From a virus (lineage: Duplodnaviria > Caudoviricetes): DNA of 56,298 nucleotides. Shown in pieces: positions 1 through 56,295 of this stretch (the stretch's first letter is position 1; every line of letters starts with the position of its first letter). Where the stretch lies: the IMG/VR virus record IMGVR_UViG_3300044674_000260, positions 1 to 56,298 of that record; one strand, given 5' to 3'. The notes beneath the pieces were generated by a model. The model worked only from the letters and a program-made list of their open reading frames with translations. It had not been told where the DNA came from and did not search any database. The position numbers were made by a program, and so were the translations under genes.

Positions 1-105
1 AACTAACGCAACAAAGCAAATTGCAATCGCTACATCCTGCCAGTCAATCCGCGCAAGGTCGCGCTCCATCTCCTCAAGCAACTCTGCCAAGCTCCGCAAA
101 ATCAT
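1..105 (-). CDS. small membrane protein, truncated at window edge (paralog of 55099-55242)
   Basis: ATG at 105 overlaps the GGCT stop (ATGA); MILRSLAELLEEMERDLARIDWQDVAIAICFVALV is near-identical to the right-end copy. Confidence 0.6.
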   Translation of the reverse strand, partial: MILRSLAELLEEMERDLARIDWQDVAIAICFVALV

Positions 106-503
106 GCCGCTAACTCCGAATCACGCAACGCAACGCGCAAATGCCAATCATCAAGACCAAAGTCCTTATAACCCTCTTCGATCATTTTATAATAACCACT
201 CGACGGCATGCCAAGATTCCCCTTCGGGCCGTTCATGTCGTAAATCATCCACTCGCCGTTGATCTTGCGCCGATCATACAAGGTCGGGTATCCTTCCAAC
301 CTGTCCAACGCTCGCAAGCAATCGTGCGTAATCTCCCACAAAACCACAGGCAAAATGTTGTCGTGATCCTGTCGGAAGTCCGCAACACCGCGAAAAATCA
401 AACGGTGGTCAGGCAGATAAAAGCCGCCCATCGGCTTGGCCTTCGGACATCGCGCAGCCATAGCTTCGCGGTTCGTGTTCATTCCATATGCTAGATAATA
501 CAT
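102..503 (-). CDS. gamma-glutamylcyclotransferase (GGCT/AIG2-like) family protein
   Basis: YLAYGMN N-terminal motif, LDRLEGYP motif, PSxxY near C-terminus. Confidence 0.85.
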   Translation of the reverse strand: MYYLAYGMNTNREAMAARCPKAKPMGGFYLPDHRLIFRGVADFRQDHDNILPVVLWEITHDCLRALDRLEGYPTLYDRRKINGEWMIYDMNGPKGNLGMPSSGYYKMIEEGYKDFGLDDWHLRVALRDSELAA

Positions 504-539
504 GGTAACTCCTATTTTGTTCGGGTTAAAACGCAGCCG

Positions 540-896
540 TTAAGCTGCGTTCAATTCATATTCGATTAGGTCAAGCGCATCATCGACAAGCTCAGTGTTC
601 AGCTTCTCCAACGTGTCGCGGTCAATCTCACCTACGATCACCTTTTGCGCATAAGATGGGCAACAGTCCGCATCGCATGCAGTGTAATTGCAGAACTGCG
701 CAATCACCCATGAACGCAACTTCTTCGGCTTGTCATGGTGCGCAAGCAAGAACTCCTTGTTAGCGCGATAGTGCTCCTCACCCAAATAAGAGCCGTCCAA
801 CCAACCGCGAAAAAAGCGGCGGGTCACATGGTTGCTGTCCAAAAGATCACCTGCAAGGTCGCGGATAATGCGGGTTTTTGCTGTCGTGTCAGTCAT
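540..896 (-). CDS. hypothetical early protein (paralog of 55874-56230)
   Basis: GAGGAGG RBS; conserved in second copy. Confidence 0.8.
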   Translation of the reverse strand: MTDTTAKTRIIRDLAGDLLDSNHVTRRFFRGWLDGSYLGEEHYRANKEFLLAHHDKPKKLRSWVIAQFCNYTACDADCCPSYAQKVIVGEIDRDTLEKLNTELVDDALDLIEYELNAA

Positions 897-904
897 GGCG
901 TGTG

Positions 905-958
905 CCTCCTCATTTACTAGACAATCCCAACTTATCCCATATTATATGCCACGTCAAC
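905..958 (-). promoter_or_regulatory. sigma70-like early promoter with TGGGA boxes
   Basis: TTGACG...ATGGGATAAGTTGGGATTGTCTAGTAAATGAGGAGG on - strand. Confidence 0.6.
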
Positions 959-2611: not shown

Positions 2612-2936
2612 ACAATCGGGCTTGACCCTTCGGGGTCGGGCCTATCGGGATCGGGGTATCGGGATCGGGATCGGGGTATATCATATGATATGCCCCTTTT
2701 TATATGTATATACACATACATACACACATACATGCATACATGTGTTCATATTCTTTGAAAAAAACGCTCATTCATCCGCGCCAAAACCACCAGCCGAACG
2801 CCAGCAAAAACGATAAGCCGAACAATTGTTCTAGATAATCCCACAAAATCCCTTGTTTTATGGGATAATATCAGTTAAAAGAGGTTATGGCAGGGCAATA
2901 CCGCACTGCCAATCTAGAAAAAAGCGAGTAAAAACA

Positions 2937-4010
2937 ATGACTTATACATTTGGTATCGAAATCGAAACAGCAGGTGTTTCAATCAACCGCGTCGAAAATG
3001 CATTAGATCGTGCGGGTGTTCGTGGGTGCAAGGTGGTTCCAGACGGTACGCCAAACGTTGACGCTGAAATCATATTGCCACCTTTGGCAGATTGTCAGGT
3101 GGCGTTTGAATACATTGAAAGCGTTTGCGATGTGTTGGAACGCGTCGGATGTGACGTCAACCGCAATTGTGGTTTGCATGTTCATATTGGCAATGCGCCA
3201 TTGTCTGATGACACAACACCCGCTGCATTCACAGGCGATAGCATTTCACACATGGCGCGTACTGGTTCATATTATTCAAACCATGGCGAAGCGTTTGACG
3301 CGGTTATCGTTAAAGACATCATGCAACGCTACGAACGCCAACAGGCAACGTTCAACACAATGTTTGCATCATCACGCACAAACAATCGCATGTGTCAGGC
3401 ATTGAATGCATCACAGCTTGAACACGCTACCACCATTCGCGAATTGAACCATGGCAAGTTTTTCGCAATCAATCTTGAAACATGGCAACGCGGTACAATG
3501 GAATTTCGTCAACACGGTGGCACAATCGACGCGGTTAAAATTTGGAATTGGGTGCAATTCCTAATCAACCTAGTTGACCACACCATTCAAAACCGCGTCG
3601 AAACAGGAACACGCACAATTGTTCAAGATACGCCAGTTGATCCATTCCGCCGCAATTCACGCGTGGGTGTTCAATATACAATGATGCGCAACGGCAATGG
3701 TGGCGTAACAACGCGTGACATTATGGACGCCACAGGATGCAGCGAGCAACGTGTTCGTGCGTCTGTTTCAGACATCCGCAATCGTGTTGGTGATGGTGCT
3801 GTCATCACCCACACACAACAGGCAAACGGTGGGTCATATGGCGATGGCACAGACCTAACACGCTACGAGGTTTTGACATCATTCCAAACCACAGATGGTG
3901 GCGTCCAATTGCGCAGCGATGACACAATAGGCATACCGTCGATATGGGCAGGAACATCAGATGACTTGTTCGAATGGTGGCAGGATCGCATCGAGGCATT
4001 GGCGCGATAA
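2937..4010 (+). CDS. putative amidoligase (COOH-NH2 ligase, Amidoligase_2-like) with C-terminal HTH-like extension
   Basis: TFGIEIE, CGLHVH and TMEFRQHGGT motifs. Confidence 0.85.
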   Translation: MTYTFGIEIETAGVSINRVENALDRAGVRGCKVVPDGTPNVDAEIILPPLADCQVAFEYIESVCDVLERVGCDVNRNCGLHVHIGNAPLSDDTTPAAFTGDSISHMARTGSYYSNHGEAFDAVIVKDIMQRYERQQATFNTMFASSRTNNRMCQALNASQLEHATTIRELNHGKFFAINLETWQRGTMEFRQHGGTIDAVKIWNWVQFLINLVDHTIQNRVETGTRTIVQDTPVDPFRRNSRVGVQYTMMRNGNGGVTTRDIMDATGCSEQRVRASVSDIRNRVGDGAVITHTQQANGGSYGDGTDLTRYEVLTSFQTTDGGVQLRSDDTIGIPSIWAGTSDDLFEWWQDRIEALAR

Positions 4011-18024: not shown

Positions 18025-18101
18025 ATCTCATTTCCTGTATATTGAATGTATCCCTGACAGTCGCATGGTGCGGCTGACACTAGCCTCGACAGGAGATACA
18101 C

Positions 18102-18317
18102 ATGGCTAACACGACATTTAATGGTCCAGTTCGTTCTGAGAACGGATTCAAAGACGTAACAAAGAACGCGACAACTGGCGCGGTGACAGAAAACATTTCT
18201 ATCACACACGACGGCACAAACAGTGTTGTAATTATCAGCGACCTACCGACTTCTGATCCAACTGTCGCAGGGCAGCTATGGAGCAACTCAGGTGTTGTGA
18301 CTGTCTCCGCTGGATAA
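18102..18317 (+). CDS. small virion protein (putative)
   Basis: AGGAG RBS; MANTTFNGPVRSENGF start. Confidence 0.7.
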   Translation: MANTTFNGPVRSENGFKDVTKNATTGAVTENISITHDGTNSVVIISDLPTSDPTVAGQLWSNSGVVTVSAG

Positions 18318-46141: not shown

Positions 46142-46362
46142 CAGTGCCATCAGCACCAAAGCCAATCGAAGAATTGGCGCATATACTAGGAAAGTTTGGG
46201 TGGGACACACGGTTTTCTGACTTAACAGAAGATCAAGTCCACACACTAATCTTTGGATTACAGGAAGCAGAACGTCTAGCAGCGGAGATCAACATTGGAA
46301 AGCTCGAAGAAACCTACTTTAAGTCAACAGGCACTTGGCCTTCTACATCAATCCCCTTCTAA
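46138..46362 (+). CDS. hypothetical protein
   Basis: GAGGAG RBS, TTG start, ends IPF. Confidence 0.6.
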   Translation: MTVPSAPKPIEELAHILGKFGWDTRFSDLTEDQVHTLIFGLQEAERLAAEINIGKLEETYFKSTGTWPSTSIPF

Positions 46363-47077
46363 AGAAGACCCAGTTGTTGATCACATCAAGGCAGCGATAG
46401 ACAATGCCATCGTCGCAGGCGAAAAGAAACGCGAACGACGCAAGTACATTGGCGCATCTAGTATCGGTGATGAATGTCAGCGCAAGATACAGTATCGCTA
46501 CCTCAACTATCCTGTAGACCCAGACAAAGAGTTCAGCGCACAAACGCTGCGCATCTTTCAGTTCGGTCACGAGATCGAAGATTACGCGGCTAAGTGGATC
46601 AAGGATGCAGGGTTCGATCTGCGCACAGAAGATACACAAGGCGAACAATTTGGGTTCTCAATCGCTGATGATCAAATCAGAGGCCACATCGACGGTGTAG
46701 TCTGTGACGGTCCTGTTGCCATGGGCTATCCATGTTTGTGGGAAAACAAGTCAGCAAACGAAAAGAAGTTTCAAGCATTCGTGCGTCATGGTGTTGCAAA
46801 AGCCAACCCCGTGTATGCAACGCAGATTGCTTTGTACCAGACGTATATGGAGCTAACGGAAAACCCTGCGCTCTTCACAGTGGTCAATAAAAATACGTCT
46901 GAAATATACTATGAGCTAGTGCCGTACAATCCTGTTCTGGCACAAGAAGCGAGTGATCGCGCAGTGAATATCTTGACGGCTGCGAAAGCGGGTGACATTC
47001 TACCCCGCATAGCGCAAAGTAAAGACTTTTTTCTGTGCAAATTCTGCGAGTTTCGTGAGACTTGTTGGAATGAATAA
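46295..47077 (+). CDS. Cas4-like/PD-(D/E)XK exonuclease
   Basis: YIGASSIGDEC, GHIDG, WENKS, Q...Y, CKFCEFRETC. Confidence 0.85.
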   Translation: MESSKKPTLSQQALGLLHQSPSKEDPVVDHIKAAIDNAIVAGEKKRERRKYIGASSIGDECQRKIQYRYLNYPVDPDKEFSAQTLRIFQFGHEIEDYAAKWIKDAGFDLRTEDTQGEQFGFSIADDQIRGHIDGVVCDGPVAMGYPCLWENKSANEKKFQAFVRHGVAKANPVYATQIALYQTYMELTENPALFTVVNKNTSEIYYELVPYNPVLAQEASDRAVNILTAAKAGDILPRIAQSKDFFLCKFCEFRETCWNE

Positions 47078-52381: not shown

Positions 52382-52755
52382 GGCAAATCCTCAAAACTGT
52401 GTCGCTTTAACTCTGGAAAGTCTTGTGGTCCCAACTCTGGCAAATTCTTTGCAAGTTGCAACTCACTTGGCATTGCCCTCAAACGAAAAAACCCATCATG
52501 TTCGGGATAAGTATCCATAAACCACCTAGCAAAGAATGCGCTGTAGTTGTTGTTAAGTTTGAATGTGGACTTGCCGTCCACATCCGCTTCGTCAGTCTCC
52601 CACCGAATACGCTCAAACACACCCTTCGCAGAGTAATTTCGAAAGCCTCGATGGATAACCTCAAACGTAAACCGAACAAAACACTCCCACACCTTGGGAT
52701 TCTCCCTGTGGAACTTAACAGCAGCTTCTTCGATCTCTTCGTAACGCGTCTTCAT
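52378..52755 (-). CDS. hypothetical protein
   Basis: FHRENPKVW, ERIRWE, FKLNNNY, FFRLR phage motif set. Confidence 0.75.
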   Translation of the reverse strand: MKTRYEEIEEAAVKFHRENPKVWECFVRFTFEVIHRGFRNYSAKGVFERIRWETDEADVDGKSTFKLNNNYSAFFARWFMDTYPEHDGFFRLRAMPSELQLAKNLPELGPQDFPELKRHSFEDLP

Positions 52756-53276
52756 GCCGCTGCCTCTTCATCGCCGCGTAGCTGTGTCGCAATATCTTCA
52801 ATCGGTTGCACACTCACACCATGCGCCTCAACGCATCCGCGATAACGATTCAACCAACGCGCCAAATCAGATGCAGCCTGCCTACGCAACTCAGCTCTCG
52901 AATCTTCACTGTCTGGATCATATGGCACATAACCGCCACCATTGCGCCGACTCGATTGGGGGCTAAGAAATGCGGGTGCCTCATAGCTGATAGCCTTTGC
53001 CAAATCACTGACATCAACTTTCTTGACTGGTGGAATATGAACCTGAATCCGTAAGCCGCTAATCAACTGACGCGCTAATGACATTCGATGCTGACGCGCA
53101 GCCTCTTTATCACCAGAACCAAAGAACCGCTCATAACATGGATGATCTGGCCTGTCCTCAAGCCAATCTGTGAACTCATCCACTTTATACATGTTGCGAC
53201 GAGTCTCTTTCAAATAATCATCAACGATTTTCTGACGCTCGTCTTTGTTCCAAATGGAGTCAACTCTATCTTCCAT
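52752..53276 (-). CDS. putative partner protein of the Cas7-like/pentamer-array locus
   Basis: AGGAG RBS right after the array 3' hairpin; PDHPCYERFF...AARQHRMSLARQLI. Confidence 0.75.
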   Translation of the reverse strand: MEDRVDSIWNKDERQKIVDDYLKETRRNMYKVDEFTDWLEDRPDHPCYERFFGSGDKEAARQHRMSLARQLISGLRIQVHIPPVKKVDVSDLAKAISYEAPAFLSPQSSRRNGGGYVPYDPDSEDSRAELRRQAASDLARWLNRYRGCVEAHGVSVQPIEDIATQLRGDEEAAA

Positions 53277-53304
53277 TTTCTTCTCCTATTTAATGTTAAA
53301 AGTT

Positions 53305-53652
53305 GGTGGGGAATCTGCGTGATCCCCCACCTTGGTTTATGGTCTATGCCGAACCAGACCGCACCGCACCGCAACATACCGCGCCATGCCTCGCCTGAAC
53401 CGCCTAACCTTGTCGGACCGAGCCGAACCAGACCAAATCGCACCATACCGAATCGTGCCATTCCATGACCGCCATAACATACCGTGTATCACCACAACAT
53501 ACCTTACCGCGCCACGCCTCGCCGGAACTAACCTTGACCGCCTTGCCATAACCACATCTTACCAGAACTCGCCTGAACGCACCGTAACATTCCGCGCCAT
53601 GACCGCCTTGCCTTGCCGTGTCGTTCAGATGGGCATAGGCAATGCCCACCTG
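53305..53652 (-). ncRNA. candidate guide-RNA array of GGY-NN pentamers (4 units) bounded by hairpins
   Basis: 5-nt periodicity over 53346-53618; GGCGGTY delimiters at 53601, 53536, 53467, 53398; hairpins at 53626-53652 and 53305-53331. Confidence 0.75.
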
Positions 53653-53675
53653 TAATGCTTGCCAACGCACCCCCT

Positions 53676-54446
53676 TTATGCCGCTACCATGCGACGAGCG
53701 CGTTCTTCATTAAGATAACCCATCAACTCTTCAGTCATTTCATCTGCACACTCGGGGTTTGCCATCGCAAGTTTTTGCGCTTCCATTCCCTCTTTCGTAA
53801 TGCGATTCCAATCGGCTTTGTAATCTTTCCAGTTCGGTAAATCCTCGCCAGTCACAGTGAAGCACCCATACGCGCCTCGCCCCTTCTCCTGTCGAAAATC
53901 ACCCAAGCCAACAATCGAACCTGCGTTCTGCAACAACGTAAACACATCTGTTGCGGATAACGTGGGTTGTACAAACGAAACATTAATCTCCGCACACCAC
54001 TCGGGCAAATATGCTCGGGTTCTCATATCGGGCGTTTTGTTAATATTCGCCATGCGAACTGTGTCGATCTTCAAATATGGTCTGCCGTAGATTTCAGTCT
54101 CCAATTGAGGAAAGAAAAGCAAACGCTGAACATTGGTTCTTGCAACACCCTTCGTTTCAATCGCAGCAGTCGCCATAGCTTGCTTAATTGCAGCAGGGGG
54201 GAAATACAAATGCGTCTTTCCATAGCTCTTTTTATAAACCGAATCACGAAACTCTTGTTCGGGATTGTGCTTGATCTCACGCTTTTCAGCCGTGGTCTTC
54301 GGGGCACTCCCAATTAATAGATCACGCTTCGCCTTTACGCTCATCGAATTATAATAGAACGGTGTTGTTCCAATTAATCGCAATGTAATGTTAGCATGCT
54401 CCAAAGCAGTAACCATTGCACCTTCTGTAGTTTTCTTAACAGCCAT
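53676..54446 (-). CDS. Cas7/RAMP-like RNA-binding protein
   Basis: N-terminal LRLIGTTP strand, YFPPAAIKQAM helix, C-terminal Gly-rich loop VGLGDFRQEKGRGAYGCF. Confidence 0.7.
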   Translation of the reverse strand: MAVKKTTEGAMVTALEHANITLRLIGTTPFYYNSMSVKAKRDLLIGSAPKTTAEKREIKHNPEQEFRDSVYKKSYGKTHLYFPPAAIKQAMATAAIETKGVARTNVQRLLFFPQLETEIYGRPYLKIDTVRMANINKTPDMRTRAYLPEWCAEINVSFVQPTLSATDVFTLLQNAGSIVGLGDFRQEKGRGAYGCFTVTGEDLPNWKDYKADWNRITKEGMEAQKLAMANPECADEMTEELMGYLNEERARRMVAA

Positions 54447-54463
54447 TTTTTGCTCCTTTTGGC

Positions 54464-54736
54464 TTACGCGCTAGTAGCGCATTCTTCACACTTCTCGGCA
54501 TCGTATCCCATGCCAACCGTCACAACCTCGCCACAATCGCAAAGCCGCTCCATCTCTCCGTCACCCGAACAAGTCTCGCAAAGCTCACGAACCTCTTCCA
54601 GATAACCAACGTCACGCCCAAAATCCTGTGGGCGCGGTCTGTCAAACGTGATGTAACCATCACCCCAACAATCGGGGCACGGTGCCATAATCGGTGTCTC
54701 CATGGCCTGAATAGCCAGATCACTCATACGTCCCAT
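54464..54736 (-). CDS. DnaJ-type zinc-finger small protein
   Basis: CPDCWGDG...CETCSGDG plus CDC...CEEC. Confidence 0.7.
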   Translation of the reverse strand: MGRMSDLAIQAMETPIMAPCPDCWGDGYITFDRPRPQDFGRDVGYLEEVRELCETCSGDGEMERLCDCGEVVTVGMGYDAEKCEECATSA

Positions 54737-54741
54737 GATGT

Positions 54742-54795
54742 TTCCTTTTTACTAGATATAACCCATATAATCCCAAGTCATATGGTATGTCAATA
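54742..54795 (-). promoter_or_regulatory. early promoter driving the ZnF-Cas7-like-array operon
   Basis: TTGACA...TTGGGATTATATGGGTTATATCTAGTAAAAAGGA on - strand. Confidence 0.65.
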
Positions 54796-54816
54796 AAAAA
54801 ATTTATCATCGGGAAT

Positions 54817-54848
54817 AAAAAAAGCCCCAACCGCATCGGGTCGGGGCA
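54817..54848 (-). terminator. rho-independent terminator
   Basis: GCCCCGACC...GGTTGGGGC followed by T-run on - strand. Confidence 0.6.
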
Positions 54849-55035
54849 AGTCTAATATTGAGGCAGCTTAGGAAACAATGAGCAGAACCTAAGCCGTGTC
54901 CCTACTTAGCATGGGAATTTGTGGGATGCAAGAAGAAAATACCACTGGAACTCACAACACTGCTGTAGGTCAAATTGTTCGGGTTATAAGCGCCAAAAAA
55001 ATACAACTGGTACACACAACACTGCTGTAGGTTAC

Positions 55036-55098: not shown

Positions 55099-55242
55099 TC
55101 ACCACCATCCGACGACAATCCCAATGATACCAAGGCCAACTAACGCAACAAAGCAAATTGCAATCGCTACATCCTGCCAGTCGATACGCGCAAGGTCGCG
55201 CTCCATCTCCTCAAGCAATTCTGCCAAACTCTGTAAAATCAT
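55099..55242 (-). CDS. small membrane protein (47 aa, not in ORF track)
   Basis: GGAG RBS; MILQSLAELLEEMERDL...IIGIVVGWW; paralog at window start. Confidence 0.6.
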   Translation of the reverse strand: MILQSLAELLEEMERDLARIDWQDVAIAICFVALVGLGIIGIVVGWW

Positions 55243-55254
55243 GCCGCTAACTCC

Positions 55255-55440
55255 TCACACAAATGAATAACCAAAGAAAATTGCAATGCCGTGGACTAAC
55301 GCAATCGGGGGAAACAATGCACCCGCAATTAAAAAGCCCCAAGCACCCGCCGCAAAGCAAACCAAAACATGCGTTAACCAAATCGCAATACCTGCAATAA
55401 TTGACGCAATCCCAATCGCTGTTCCAAAAAACTCACTCAT
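55255..55440 (-). CDS. small two-TM membrane protein, inserted cassette
   Basis: MSEFFGTAIG... starts in ATGA overlap with GGCT stop; absent from left copy. Confidence 0.65.
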   Translation of the reverse strand: MSEFFGTAIGIASIIAGIAIWLTHVLVCFAAGAWGFLIAGALFPPIALVHGIAIFFGYSFV

Positions 55441-55838
55441 GCCGCCAACTCCGCATCTTTCGCCGCAGCGCGTAAATACCAATCATCAAGCCCAAAGTCT
55501 TTATAACCCTGCTCAATCATATCATAATAGCCGCTCGACGGTGTGCCCAACGCGCCCTTGTTGCCGTTCATGTCATAAATAAGCCAGTCGCCGTTGATCT
55601 TGCGGCGGTCGTACAAAGTCGGGTAGCCTTCAAGACGGTCTAACGCTCTCAAGCAATCGTGCGTAATCTCCCACAAAACGACAGGCAAAACCATGTCGGA
55701 ATCGTAGCGAAAGTCAGCAACACCGCGAAACGTCAAGCGGTGGTCAGGTAAATAAAAGCCGCCCAACGGCTTGGCCTTCGGGCATCGCGCAGCCATAGCA
55801 TCGCGGTTCGTGTTCATTCCATATGCTAGATAATACAT
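55437..55838 (-). CDS. gamma-glutamylcyclotransferase family protein (second copy)
   Basis: YLAYGMN, LDRLEGYP; highly similar to 102-503. Confidence 0.85.
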   Translation of the reverse strand: MYYLAYGMNTNRDAMAARCPKAKPLGGFYLPDHRLTFRGVADFRYDSDMVLPVVLWEITHDCLRALDRLEGYPTLYDRRKINGDWLIYDMNGNKGALGTPSSGYYDMIEQGYKDFGLDDWYLRAAAKDAELAA

Positions 55839-55873
55839 ATCTTCTCCTTTGCTAGAATGGGGGAAAGCGCAGC

Positions 55874-56230
55874 CTAAGCCGCGCTCAATTCATATTCGAT
55901 CAAGTCAAGCGCATCATCGACAAGCTCAGTGTTCAGCTTCTCCAGTGTCTCGCTGTCGATAGTCTCAACGATCACCTTCTGCGCATATGATGGGCAACAG
56001 TCCGCATCGCATGCTGTATAATTACAAAACTGTGCAATCACCCAAGAACGCAACTTCTTCGGCTTGTCATGGTGCGCAAGCAAAAACTCTTTGTTCGCAA
56101 CATAGTGTTCATAGCCCAAATAAGAGCCGTCCAACCAACAGCGGAAAAAGCGACGAGTCGCATGGTTGCTGTCCAATAGGTCGCCTTGCAAATCGCGGAT
56201 AATGCGGGTTTTGGCGGTCGTGTTGTCCAT
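55874..56230 (-). CDS. hypothetical early protein (second copy)
   Basis: GAGGAG RBS before ATG 56230; 118 aa like 540-896. Confidence 0.8.
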   Translation of the reverse strand: MDNTTAKTRIIRDLQGDLLDSNHATRRFFRCWLDGSYLGYEHYVANKEFLLAHHDKPKKLRSWVIAQFCNYTACDADCCPSYAQKVIVETIDSETLEKLNTELVDDALDLIEYELSAA

Positions 56231-56239
56231 TGTTTCTGT

Positions 56240-56295
56240 CTCCTCGTTTACTAGAACTGTCACTTTTATATATGGGATAGTTTGGGACTGTCAAC
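56240..56295 (-). promoter_or_regulatory. early promoter with TCCCA boxes
   Basis: TTGACAGTCCCAAACTATCCCATATATAAAA...TCTAGTAAACGAGGAG. Confidence 0.6.

What the first reader, a model, noticed from the sequence alone, without database searches (positions are those of the whole stretch)
53346..53618. Array grammar: constant triplet/variable dinucleotide, four units split by GGCGGTY
On the - strand the leader is AC GGC AA GGC AA [GGCGGTC]. Unit 1 NN = AT GC AT AC GC CA GA CT AA GT TAT AA. Unit 2 NN = AA TA CC GA GT GC AA AT GT GA AC AT AT. Unit 3 NN = AT AT AC TC AT GC TT CT TC TC CC AA TA. Unit 4 NN = CA GA AT GC AT GC GC GC CT TC AT. Triplets are mostly GGC/GGT, with GTT, GAT, GGA, GAC and one TAC as variants. 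Delimiters lie 65, 69 and 69 nt apart (69 = 7 + 13 NN + 12 triplets). Constant scaffold with a different NN string per unit is not what slippage microsatellites produce; it looks like stored information.
Basis: partly seen in the sequence, partly recalled or inferred. Interest (0 to 1): 0.9.

Follow-up and report, generated by a model that had tools for sequence, protein, structure and literature searches.

The report
VIPR guide-RNA array in marine phage
The odd five-base repeat is a guide-RNA array of a recently described phage system (VIPR), in which the two variable bases of each repeat spell out codons of genes in rival phages; it is a new example of a known kind.

Summary
On the - strand, 53346-53618 is a (NN-GGY)n array split by GGCGGTY at 65, 69 and 69 nt. 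Its five-base periodicity is unique in the window.

It lies between a 256-aa gene and a 174-aa gene. The 256-aa protein folds as a Cas7/RAMP protein. It aligns with the Vipr protein of phage SUSP1 over the thumb and G-loop, including the published GGY-reading residues.

This is a VIPR system, described in three 2026 bioRxiv preprints. Its array has no structured tails and fits the published 'staggered' architecture.

I wrote the first ten NN of each unit as NNx and searched IMG/VR:
- Unit 1 hits the start codon of a tape-measure gene (3 hits).
- Unit 2 hits a gene upstream of the major head gene (at least 120 hits).
- Unit 3 hits a primase-helicase on the antisense strand (5 hits).
- Unit 4 hits motif A of a family-A DNA polymerase (2 hits).

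In all 130 hits the skipped base is the codon wobble position. Shuffled guides and 0-nt or 2-nt gaps show no enrichment. No guide matches the window itself.

Verdict: a new member of a known kind.

The parts
53676..54446 (-). vipr gene: 256-aa RAMP (Cas7-like) protein, phrog_4652
   Evidence: AF2 model has pLDDT 66.7 and pTM 0.67. The top Foldseek pdb rows are Csm3/Cmr/Cas7 chains, 13 with E<=0.001. hhalign against SUSP1 Vipr gives Prob 93.4, E 2.5e-7. The G-loop GLGDFRQEKGRG is invariant at G180, G182, D183, R185.
53626..53652 (-). 11-bp hairpin between the vipr stop codon and the array
   Evidence: RNA fold -23.5 kcal/mol, z -1.98. A hairpin of different sequence sits at the same place in relatives.
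53608..53619 (-). short leading run of repeats (AC GGC AA GGC AA) before the first junction
53543..53607 (-). unit 1 (junction GGCGGTC plus 12 repeats, one with a 3-nt spacer). The first 10 NN match the start codon region of a tape-measure gene.
   Evidence: 3 exact hits in viral contigs (L094-L096), all at codon offset 0 on MAITAQELNV. Target is phrog_2854, tape measure, E 3e-73.
53474..53542 (-). unit 2 (junction plus 13 repeats). The first 10 NN match KYP(D/E)VA(K/N)IV(D/E) in a phrog_13678 gene next to the major head gene.
   Evidence: All are at codon offset 0, with 75 distinct 30-mers. NN 11-12 also match in 87 of 120 and NN 13 in 0 of 120. Gene context.
53405..53473 (-). unit 3 (junction plus 13 repeats). 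The first 10 NN match the antisense strand of a primase-helicase gene.
   Evidence: 5 hits (L217-L221), with the skip base at codon position 3 of a 541-596-aa ORF on the other strand; in L220 the contig end cuts the ORF to 206 aa. Target is phrog_239, E 9.7e-184. NN 11-13 match in 0 of 5.
53346..53404 (-). unit 4 (junction GGCGGTT plus 10 repeats plus AT). The 10 NN match QEIAIAAALS in a family-A DNA polymerase.
   Evidence: 2 hits (L092, L093) at codon offset 0 with different wobble bases. Target is phrog_17, DNA polymerase, E 4.2e-40.
53305..53331 (-). 11-bp G+C-rich hairpin after the array, followed by a short U run: likely terminator or 3' cap
   Evidence: -21.8 kcal/mol, z -4.98, 0 of 200 shuffles fold as well. 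Conserved in the closest relatives.
52752..53276 (-). 174-aa accessory gene (vap candidate), phrog_15946, with invariant R..GGGY motif
   Evidence: Found beside the array in 72 loci by tblastn. hhalign against Brocalys gp46 gives Prob 92.9. AF2 pLDDT 79, helical. No fold match.

Best explanation
The array is the guide-RNA locus of a VIPR system (Viral Interference Programmable Repeat) carried by an uncultivated marine phage.

Inferred from the published work on SUSP1: the - strand is transcribed. The RAMP protein encoded just upstream (Vipr) polymerises on the RNA, one protomer per pentamer. It holds each GGY and presents the two variable bases.

Shown here by sequence matches: the NN string of each unit matches double-stranded DNA targets of the form NNx NNx, where x is the codon wobble base. 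The four units point at a tape-measure gene start, a gene next to the major head gene, a primase-helicase and a DNA polymerase. All four belong to other phages, not to this one.

Inferred: binding silences those genes and so hampers co-infecting or resident rival phages.

The units are joined head to tail by GGCGGTY. This shifts the pentamer register by -1 and fits the published 'staggered arrays with 1-nt overlapping vrRNAs'. The NN next to the junction is probably part of the junction, not of the guide.
For: Protein:
- RAMP fold.
- hhalign against SUSP1 Vipr gives Prob 93.4. It places window D183-F184-R185 on D177-W178-R179 and R144 on R138. The cryo-EM preprint gives those residues as the readers of G1, G2 and Y3.
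- D183, R185 and R144 are invariant in 30 of 30 aligned relatives.

RNA grammar:
- Pentamer profile NNG(G/T)(T/C).
- 295 of 362 spacings equal 5k+4.
- The array has no secondary structure of its own, z -0.34.

Co-occurrence:
- Array beside the gene in 75 of 80 viral loci.
- Array beside the gene in 12 of 17 bacterial-genome loci.
- Array beside the gene in 3 of 3 actinophages at 27-31% identity.

Targets:
- 130 of 130 exact hits of the four 10-NN patterns have the skip base at wobble.
- Relatives' guides are enriched only with a 1-nt gap: 17 against 2 shuffled.
- 11 of 14 non-orthologous guides have skip at wobble.

Target-free evidence:
- NN composition correlates with codon positions 1-2 of the window's ORFs, r 0.79. 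The antisense wobble register gives r 0.39 and the other four registers give -0.49 to 0.09.
- In 61 near-identical unit pairs, NN change less (0.056 and 0.065 per site) than K4 and Y5 (0.091 and 0.100).

No self-target: the best self-match is 17 of 22.

Mechanism and name come from bioRxiv 10.64898/2026.04.26.720920 and 10.64898/2026.04.26.720927.
Against: - Nothing here shows the RNA, its ends, the RNP or repression. RNA-library contigs cover the array, but such libraries can hold DNA.
- The full 13-NN patterns of units 2 and 3 gave 0 hits.
- Unit 3 matches only 10 of 13 NN, or 77%. That is below the preprint's 80% threshold unless the junction-proximal NN are left out.
The chance expectation there, about 0.1 hit per 20-base pattern, is my own estimate.
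- The control used a 1.1-Mb set chosen because it holds hits of the window's guides.
- A first local scan against the VIPR neighbourhoods showed no enrichment.
- The accessory protein is unrelated to SUSP1 vap1, Prob 0.1.
- The VIPR type cannot be assigned because the supplements are closed.
Confidence: 0.9

Rival explanations
1. The array is a decoy or competitor set of vrRNAs. Its main role is to load and misdirect the Vipr proteins of other phages, as published for satellite-borne solo vrRNAs, rather than to arm the phage's own Vipr.
For: The abstract of bioRxiv 10.64898/2026.10.15.759431 reports standalone vrRNAs that redirect a phage's VIPR. The GGY scaffold is shared across distant Vipr clades.
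Against: The array sits next to its own vipr gene in 75 of 80 loci. Its guides match essential genes of other phages in frame, which are not decoy sites.
Confidence: 0.04
2. The array is a cis-acting element of the phage's own DNA or mRNA. It could be a replication origin or R-loop region with a G-rich non-template strand, or a binding platform through which the RAMP protein regulates the downstream 174-aa gene.
For: It is G-rich on the sense strand and lies between two co-oriented genes. It ends 69 nt before the start codon of the next gene, whose ribosome-binding site lies in that gap. This was my working guess before the fold search.
Against: This does not explain hypervariable NN with codon-like composition. 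It does not explain the in-frame matches to foreign genes. It does not explain the loci where the array lies upstream of vipr (Brocalys) or after the accessory gene (L035).
Confidence: 0.03
3. It is a slippage microsatellite, a chance periodicity or a protein-coding repeat.
For: Tandem Repeats Finder reports short period-5 and period-15 fragments. Several ORFs of 72-107 aa overlap the region. In Gordonia phage UmaThurman the array is annotated as a CDS.
Against: A period of 5 keeps no reading frame. Unit lengths vary as 5k+4. NN are near-random while position 3 is G in 95%. The grammar is conserved from marine phages to actinophages.
Confidence: 0.01

Closest known systems
VIPR type II of Escherichia phage SUSP1 (bioRxiv 10.64898/2026.04.26.720920 and .720927)
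   Same: - A RAMP protein sits next to GGY/NN pentamer repeats (one search shows the SUSP1 arrays).
- The G-loop D-aromatic-R and the thumb Arg align.
- The 1-nt skip rule applies, with wobble-aligned targets in other mobile elements.
- There is no self-targeting.
   Different: - SUSP1 vrRNAs each have a leader and a roughly 40-nt 3' tail with a pseudoknot, and are spaced apart. Here the units abut through a 7-nt GGCGGTY and no tail is present.
- Vipr is 256 aa here against 195 aa.
- Sequence similarity is detectable only by profile over 55 columns.
- The accessory protein is unrelated to vap1.
- The likely hosts are marine Alphaproteobacteria, not Enterobacteria.
'Staggered vrRNA arrays' of VIPR (legend of fig. 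S18 of the discovery preprint)
   Same: The legend says individual vrRNAs derive from 1-nt overlapping positions, so that the end of one marks the start of the next. A spacing of 5k+4, that is whole pentamers minus one base, is what this predicts.
   Different: I could read only the legend. The figure, the type it belongs to and any junction motif are in material I could not see. Identity with that architecture is therefore inferred.
Class 1 CRISPR-Cas backbone (Cas7/Csm3 filament on crRNA)
   Same: Same protein fold. One protomer binds per RNA period and a thumb flips bases out at fixed intervals (paper).
   Different: - The period is 5 nt, not 6.
- Three guide bases are sequestered per period and one target base is skipped.
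- There are no long repeats, no cas1/cas2, no Cas5/Cas6 and no large subunit in the window.
- The system is phage-borne.
TRAP-trp leader RNA of Bacillus (11 (G/U)AG triplets spaced by 2-3 nt), recalled from memory
   Same: Constant triplets with 2-nt variable spacers are bound by an oligomeric protein.
   Different: The protein fold is different. Here the spacers carry codon-like information and match foreign genes. I considered this early and dropped it.

Membership tests
VIPR system | A Vipr protein with RAMP fold (RRM core, G-loop, thumb) encoded at the locus | tested here: met
   AF2 model. Foldseek's top rows are all Cas7-type chains, with 13 at E<=0.001. hhalign against SUSP1 Vipr gives Prob 93.4, E 2.5e-7.
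VIPR system | GGY-reading residues: G-loop Asp, aromatic and Arg, plus thumb Arg (SUSP1 D177, W178, R179, R138) | tested here: met
   These align with window D183, F184, R185 and R144. D183, R185 and R144 are invariant and F184 is conserved in 90% or more of 30 relatives. The roles of the residues come from the preprint. H17 and K33 could not be aligned.
VIPR system | vrRNA made of tandem YNNGG repeats (9-16 per guide) with conserved GGY and hypervariable NN | tested here: met
   The window units have 10-13 repeats. Relatives mostly have 7-15 pentamers between junctions, with a mode of 10. Profile.
VIPR system | NN strings match natural DNA targets under the 1-nt skip rule, with the skip at codon wobble | tested here: met
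   130 of 130 exact hits have the skip at wobble. Enrichment over shuffles appears only with a 1-nt gap. Unit 3 reaches only 10 of 13 NN.
VIPR system | No self-targeting at 80% or more NN match | tested here: met
   Best self-matches are 17/22, 17/24, 16/24 and 14/20.
VIPR system | A vipr-accessory (vap) gene at the locus | tested here: inconclusive
   A conserved 174-aa gene flanks the array in 72 loci and in Brocalys. It is unrelated to SUSP1 vap1 and has no fold match. The vap2-6 families are defined in supplements I could not see.
VIPR system | vrRNAs are expressed, processed and co-purify with Vipr, and the RNP binds DNA and represses transcription | not testable with these tools
   The only evidence is contigs of three RNA-library studies that cover the array. 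This does not show transcription.
VIPR type II (SUSP1-like) | An invariable structured 3' tail (pseudoknot) after each repeat tract | tested here: not met
   Units are joined directly by GGCGGTY. There is only one hairpin after the whole array.
CRISPR array | Direct repeats of about 23-50 nt separating unique spacers, with cas genes | tested here: not met
   The only repeated element is 7 nt. No Cas family appeared in the Pfam or PHROG scans of 28 proteins, apart from a Cas4-domain exonuclease at 46295-47077, which lies about 6 kb from the array.

The most novel reading that the evidence does not exclude
The 7-nt junction GGCGGTY, which is two GGY triplets with no NN between them, is the only punctuation of this array type. 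The -1 register shift would itself end one Vipr filament and seed the next. The array could then work as one unprocessed multi-guide RNA, or be cut without any ribozyme, tail or Cas6-like enzyme. One transcript would carry four filaments aimed at replication genes (DNA polymerase, primase-helicase) and virion genes (tape measure, head-assembly neighbour) of different rival phages of marine Alphaproteobacteria. This would be the most compact guide array known. It would also be a natural multiplex design.
Probability: 0.25. Interest if true: 0.6.

Novelty: new member of a known kind. Interest (0 to 1): 0.42.

Why it matters
VIPR was described only in 2026, and experimentally only in one clade (SUSP1 and P. 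fulva).

This locus shows the same code at work in an abundant, uncultivated marine phage lineage. There are 151 relatives in IMG/VR, and 2,841 protein clusters match the profile. I verified the code independently from sequence alone.

It gives concrete guide-target pairs for a tail-less array type with a 7-nt junction. It points to replication and virion genes of rival marine phages as targets.

It also shows that actinophage genomes already in GenBank carry such arrays, unannotated or annotated as a CDS. That matters for annotation pipelines and for choosing compact programmable systems.

Tried and rejected
- DNA similarity of the region to 50,697 phage records: no match.
- Rfam: nothing at the array at the gathering threshold or at E<=10. 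No tRNA.
- Promoter scan of 52700-54900: 0 sigma-70-like sites.
- Early ideas dropped after the fold search: a TRAP-like ring binder, Chi-like or primase-site arrays, G-quadruplex runs, a telomerase-like product, and an origin or R-loop.
- Full-length 13-NN patterns of units 2 and 3 in viral contigs: 0 hits. This is explained by the last NN never matching.
- Local scan of 249 guides against the window and the VIPR neighbourhood loci: real equals shuffled for gaps of 0-2 nt. The 3-nt gap only finds the arrays themselves.
- Fold of the 174-aa protein: Foldseek pdb found no match at E<=0.001. VIA wide gave a best Z of 4.6 on a helical hairpin, which is uninformative.
- hhalign of the 174-aa family against UmaThurman gp41: Prob 1.4.
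- RNA-library contigs show presence only. Contigs of X15 and X16 both stop at 53666 and 53663, just after the vipr stop codon. This is at most a weak hint of an RNA end, and I laid no DNA run beside them.
- Supplements of the preprints (type table, fig. S16-S18, data S3/S4) were not available, so I could not assign a VIPR type or vap family.

Full report
**1. Observation**

On the - strand, 53346-53618 reads as pentamers of two variable bases plus a G-rich triplet. The run is interrupted by GGCGGTC/T at 53607, 53542, 53473 and 53404, with spacings of 65, 69 and 69 nt.

Identity at lag 5 is 0.49 in 200-nt windows, with 0.47 at lag 10 and 0.46 at lag 15. Other lags give 0.20-0.30. The 14 best windows of the whole 56,298-base record all lie here. 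Tandem Repeats Finder reports only two short fragments.

**2. Setting**

The window is a complete IMG/VR virus record. It encodes:
- large and small terminase, portal, and a major head protein followed by a Mu-gpT-DE RNA;
- tail fibre proteins;
- a Sak4-like annealing protein, a Cas4-domain exonuclease, a helicase and a primase-helicase;
- an amidoligase and two gamma-glutamyl cyclotransferase genes.

The array lies in a - strand block between a 256-aa gene (53676-54446, phrog_4652, no Pfam) and a 174-aa gene (52752-53276, phrog_15946, no Pfam). An 11-bp hairpin follows the stop codon of the 256-aa gene. A stronger 11-bp hairpin (z -4.98) follows the array. The array itself folds no better than shuffles (z -0.34). 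Rfam has nothing there.

**3. Conservation**

The 256-aa protein has 151 relatives in IMG/VR, of which 80 loci were kept.
- A G-rich lag-5 array follows the gene in 75 of the 80. The other five contigs end 2-127 nt after the gene.
- Arrays run from about 130 to 850 nt, with 2-15 junctions.
- Of 362 junction spacings, 295 are 5k+4, mostly 39-79 with a mode of 54.
- Over 2720 pentamers of 266 distinct units the profile is N, N, G 95%, G 70%/T 23%, T 56%/C 38%.
- The 174-aa gene is found next to the array in 72 loci. In L035 the order is gene, 174-aa gene, array.

At 27-31% identity the protein recurs in 25 Mycobacterium and 5 Gordonia phage records. All three that I inspected have an (NNGGC)n array beside it:
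- In UmaThurman the array is annotated as CDS gp40.
- In Ecliptus it lies in an unannotated gap.
- In Brocalys it lies upstream of the gene.

In bacterial genomes, 17 loci encode relatives at 42-60% identity. Most are in Rhodobacteraceae, Hyphomonadaceae and Sphingobium, and 12 of the 17 show an array. A profile search of 1.84 billion representatives finds 2,841 proteins at E<=0.001.

**4. The protein**

AlphaFold2 with 30 relatives gives pLDDT 66.7 and pTM 0.67. The top Foldseek rows against the PDB are all Cas7-type subunits of type III and VII CRISPR complexes. Thirteen have E<=0.001, with TM about 0.4. The invariant stretch GLGDFRQEKGRG is a RAMP G-loop.

**5. Literature**

A full-text search led to bioRxiv 10.64898/2026.04.26.720920. 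I read its Results, Discussion and methods sections 20, 26 and 27, plus passages of the figure legends. It describes VIPR:
- a phage-borne RAMP protein, Vipr;
- vrRNAs of 9-16 YNNGG repeats;
- NN dinucleotides that pair with DNA of the form NNx (the '1-nt skip rule'), where x is usually the codon wobble base;
- targets in rival phages and satellites;
- seven types, some with 'staggered arrays' of vrRNAs that overlap by 1 nt.

The cryo-EM preprint 10.64898/2026.04.26.720927 (sections 5 and 6 read) shows one protomer per repeat. G1 is read by H17 and D177, G2 by R138 and W178, and Y3 by R179 and neighbouring residues. For a third preprint, 10.64898/2026.10.15.759431, I saw the outline and abstract only.

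I fetched SUSP1. Its 195-aa gene is flanked by pentamer arrays with long tails. hhalign of my alignment against that protein gives Prob 93.4, E 2.5e-7 over 55 columns. Window R144 falls on R138, and D183-F184-R185 fall on D177-W178-R179. Brocalys gp45 gives Prob 96.5 over 181 columns.

**6. Testing the code on this window**

Full 13-NN patterns of units 2 and 3 found nothing in IMG/VR. The first ten NN of each unit, written NNx, found the following:
- Unit 1: 3 hits at the ATG of a 549-aa tape-measure gene, reading MAITAQELNV.
All read KYP(D/E)VA(K/N)IV(D/E) in frame, with 75 distinct 30-mers. The gene is a phrog_13678 gene lying between the portal and major head genes.
- Unit 3: 5 hits on the antisense strand of a primase-helicase, with the skip base at codon position 3.
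- Unit 4: 2 hits reading QEIAIAAALS in a family-A DNA polymerase, with different wobble bases.

In all 130 of 130 hits the skip base is the wobble base of the gene hit, which is the longest open frame across the site except for three unit 2 hits where an opposite-strand frame is longer.

How far each match extends:
- The NN next to the following junction never matches: 0 of 120 for unit 2.
- Unit 2 reaches 12 of 13 NN in 87 of 120 hits.
- Unit 3 stops at 10 of 13.
- In unit 1, the AT of the odd TAT spacer fits the next codon in 3 of 3 hits.

The last NN is AA or AT in 117 of 261 units. It therefore looks like part of the junction.

The window has no homologue of any target protein, and no self-match reaches 80%.

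**7. Controls**

I scanned 200 guides from relatives against the 1.11 Mb of loci fetched by the four patterns. This set is biased towards target phages. Counts of best hits with at most 1 mismatch:

| Gap | Real guides | Shuffled guides |
|---|---|---|
| 0 nt | 1 | 1 |
| 1 nt | 17 | 2 |
| 2 nt | 2 | 2 |

With a 1-nt gap, 6 real guides and 0 shuffled guides match perfectly. Three of the 17 are orthologues of window guides. Of the other 14, 11 have the skip at wobble, and several converge on the same polymerase gene.

Evidence that needs no targets:
- NN composition correlates with codon positions 1-2 of the window's 24 long ORFs (r 0.79). The antisense wobble register gives r 0.39. The other four registers give -0.49 to 0.09.
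- In 61 near-identical unit pairs, NN change less than the K and Y positions.

I could not run shuffled patterns on IMG/VR itself.

**8. Expression**

Contigs of three RNA-library studies cover the array. This does not prove transcription.

**9. Verdict**

The locus is a VIPR system with a tail-less, junction-only array that fits the published staggered architecture.

The kind is already in print, so this is a new member. Its own points of interest are:
- the 7-nt junction;
- a larger Vipr protein;
- an accessory protein shared with mycobacteriophages but unrelated to vap1;
- named targets in rival marine phages.

Noticed in passing
L089 3619-3942 (Gordonia phage UmaThurman gp40); L091 3583-3843; L090 2591-2826: GenBank actinophage records carry pentamer arrays beside a Vipr homologue. 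One is annotated as a hypothetical protein CDS (UmaThurman gp40). The others lie in unannotated gaps. In Brocalys the array is upstream of the gene.
   Followed up: partly
window 1-921 and 55138-56255: The two ends of the record share a diverged direct repeat. 102-921 matches 55437-56255 at 84% over 827 nt, and 1-117 matches 55138-55254 at 95%. It includes the two gamma-glutamyl cyclotransferase paralogues, so it is not an exact terminal redundancy.
   Followed up: partly
window 18052-18104 (+): A Mu-gpT-DE RNA (Rfam RF03012, 73.1 bits) lies right after the major head gene.
   Followed up: no
window 2853-4010, 102-503, 55437-55838: An amidoligase-like gene and two GGACT-type cyclotransferase genes. 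This may be a small-molecule or modification module. It is unexplained.
   Followed up: no
L035 3747-4600: In one relative the order is vipr, accessory gene, then a short array with T-rich triplets (GTT common). The array can therefore move within the module.
   Followed up: no
L092 11134-11650: At least five guides from five different VIPR phages fall within about 500 nt of the same DNA polymerase gene: window unit 4, with its orthologue in L003, plus guides of L063, L065, L074 and L078. This suggests convergent targeting.
   Followed up: partly
runs X2 and X5: Two runs labelled with an organism, not a metagenome, hold 0.98-1.00 of the sampled words of 52700-54500. The phage or a lysogen may be in culture.
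   Followed up: no
L225, L227: Short contigs binned as Candidatus Nealsonbacteria and Flavobacteriales carry Vipr at 58-59% identity to the window. They are probably phage contigs mis-binned into those MAGs.
   Followed up: no
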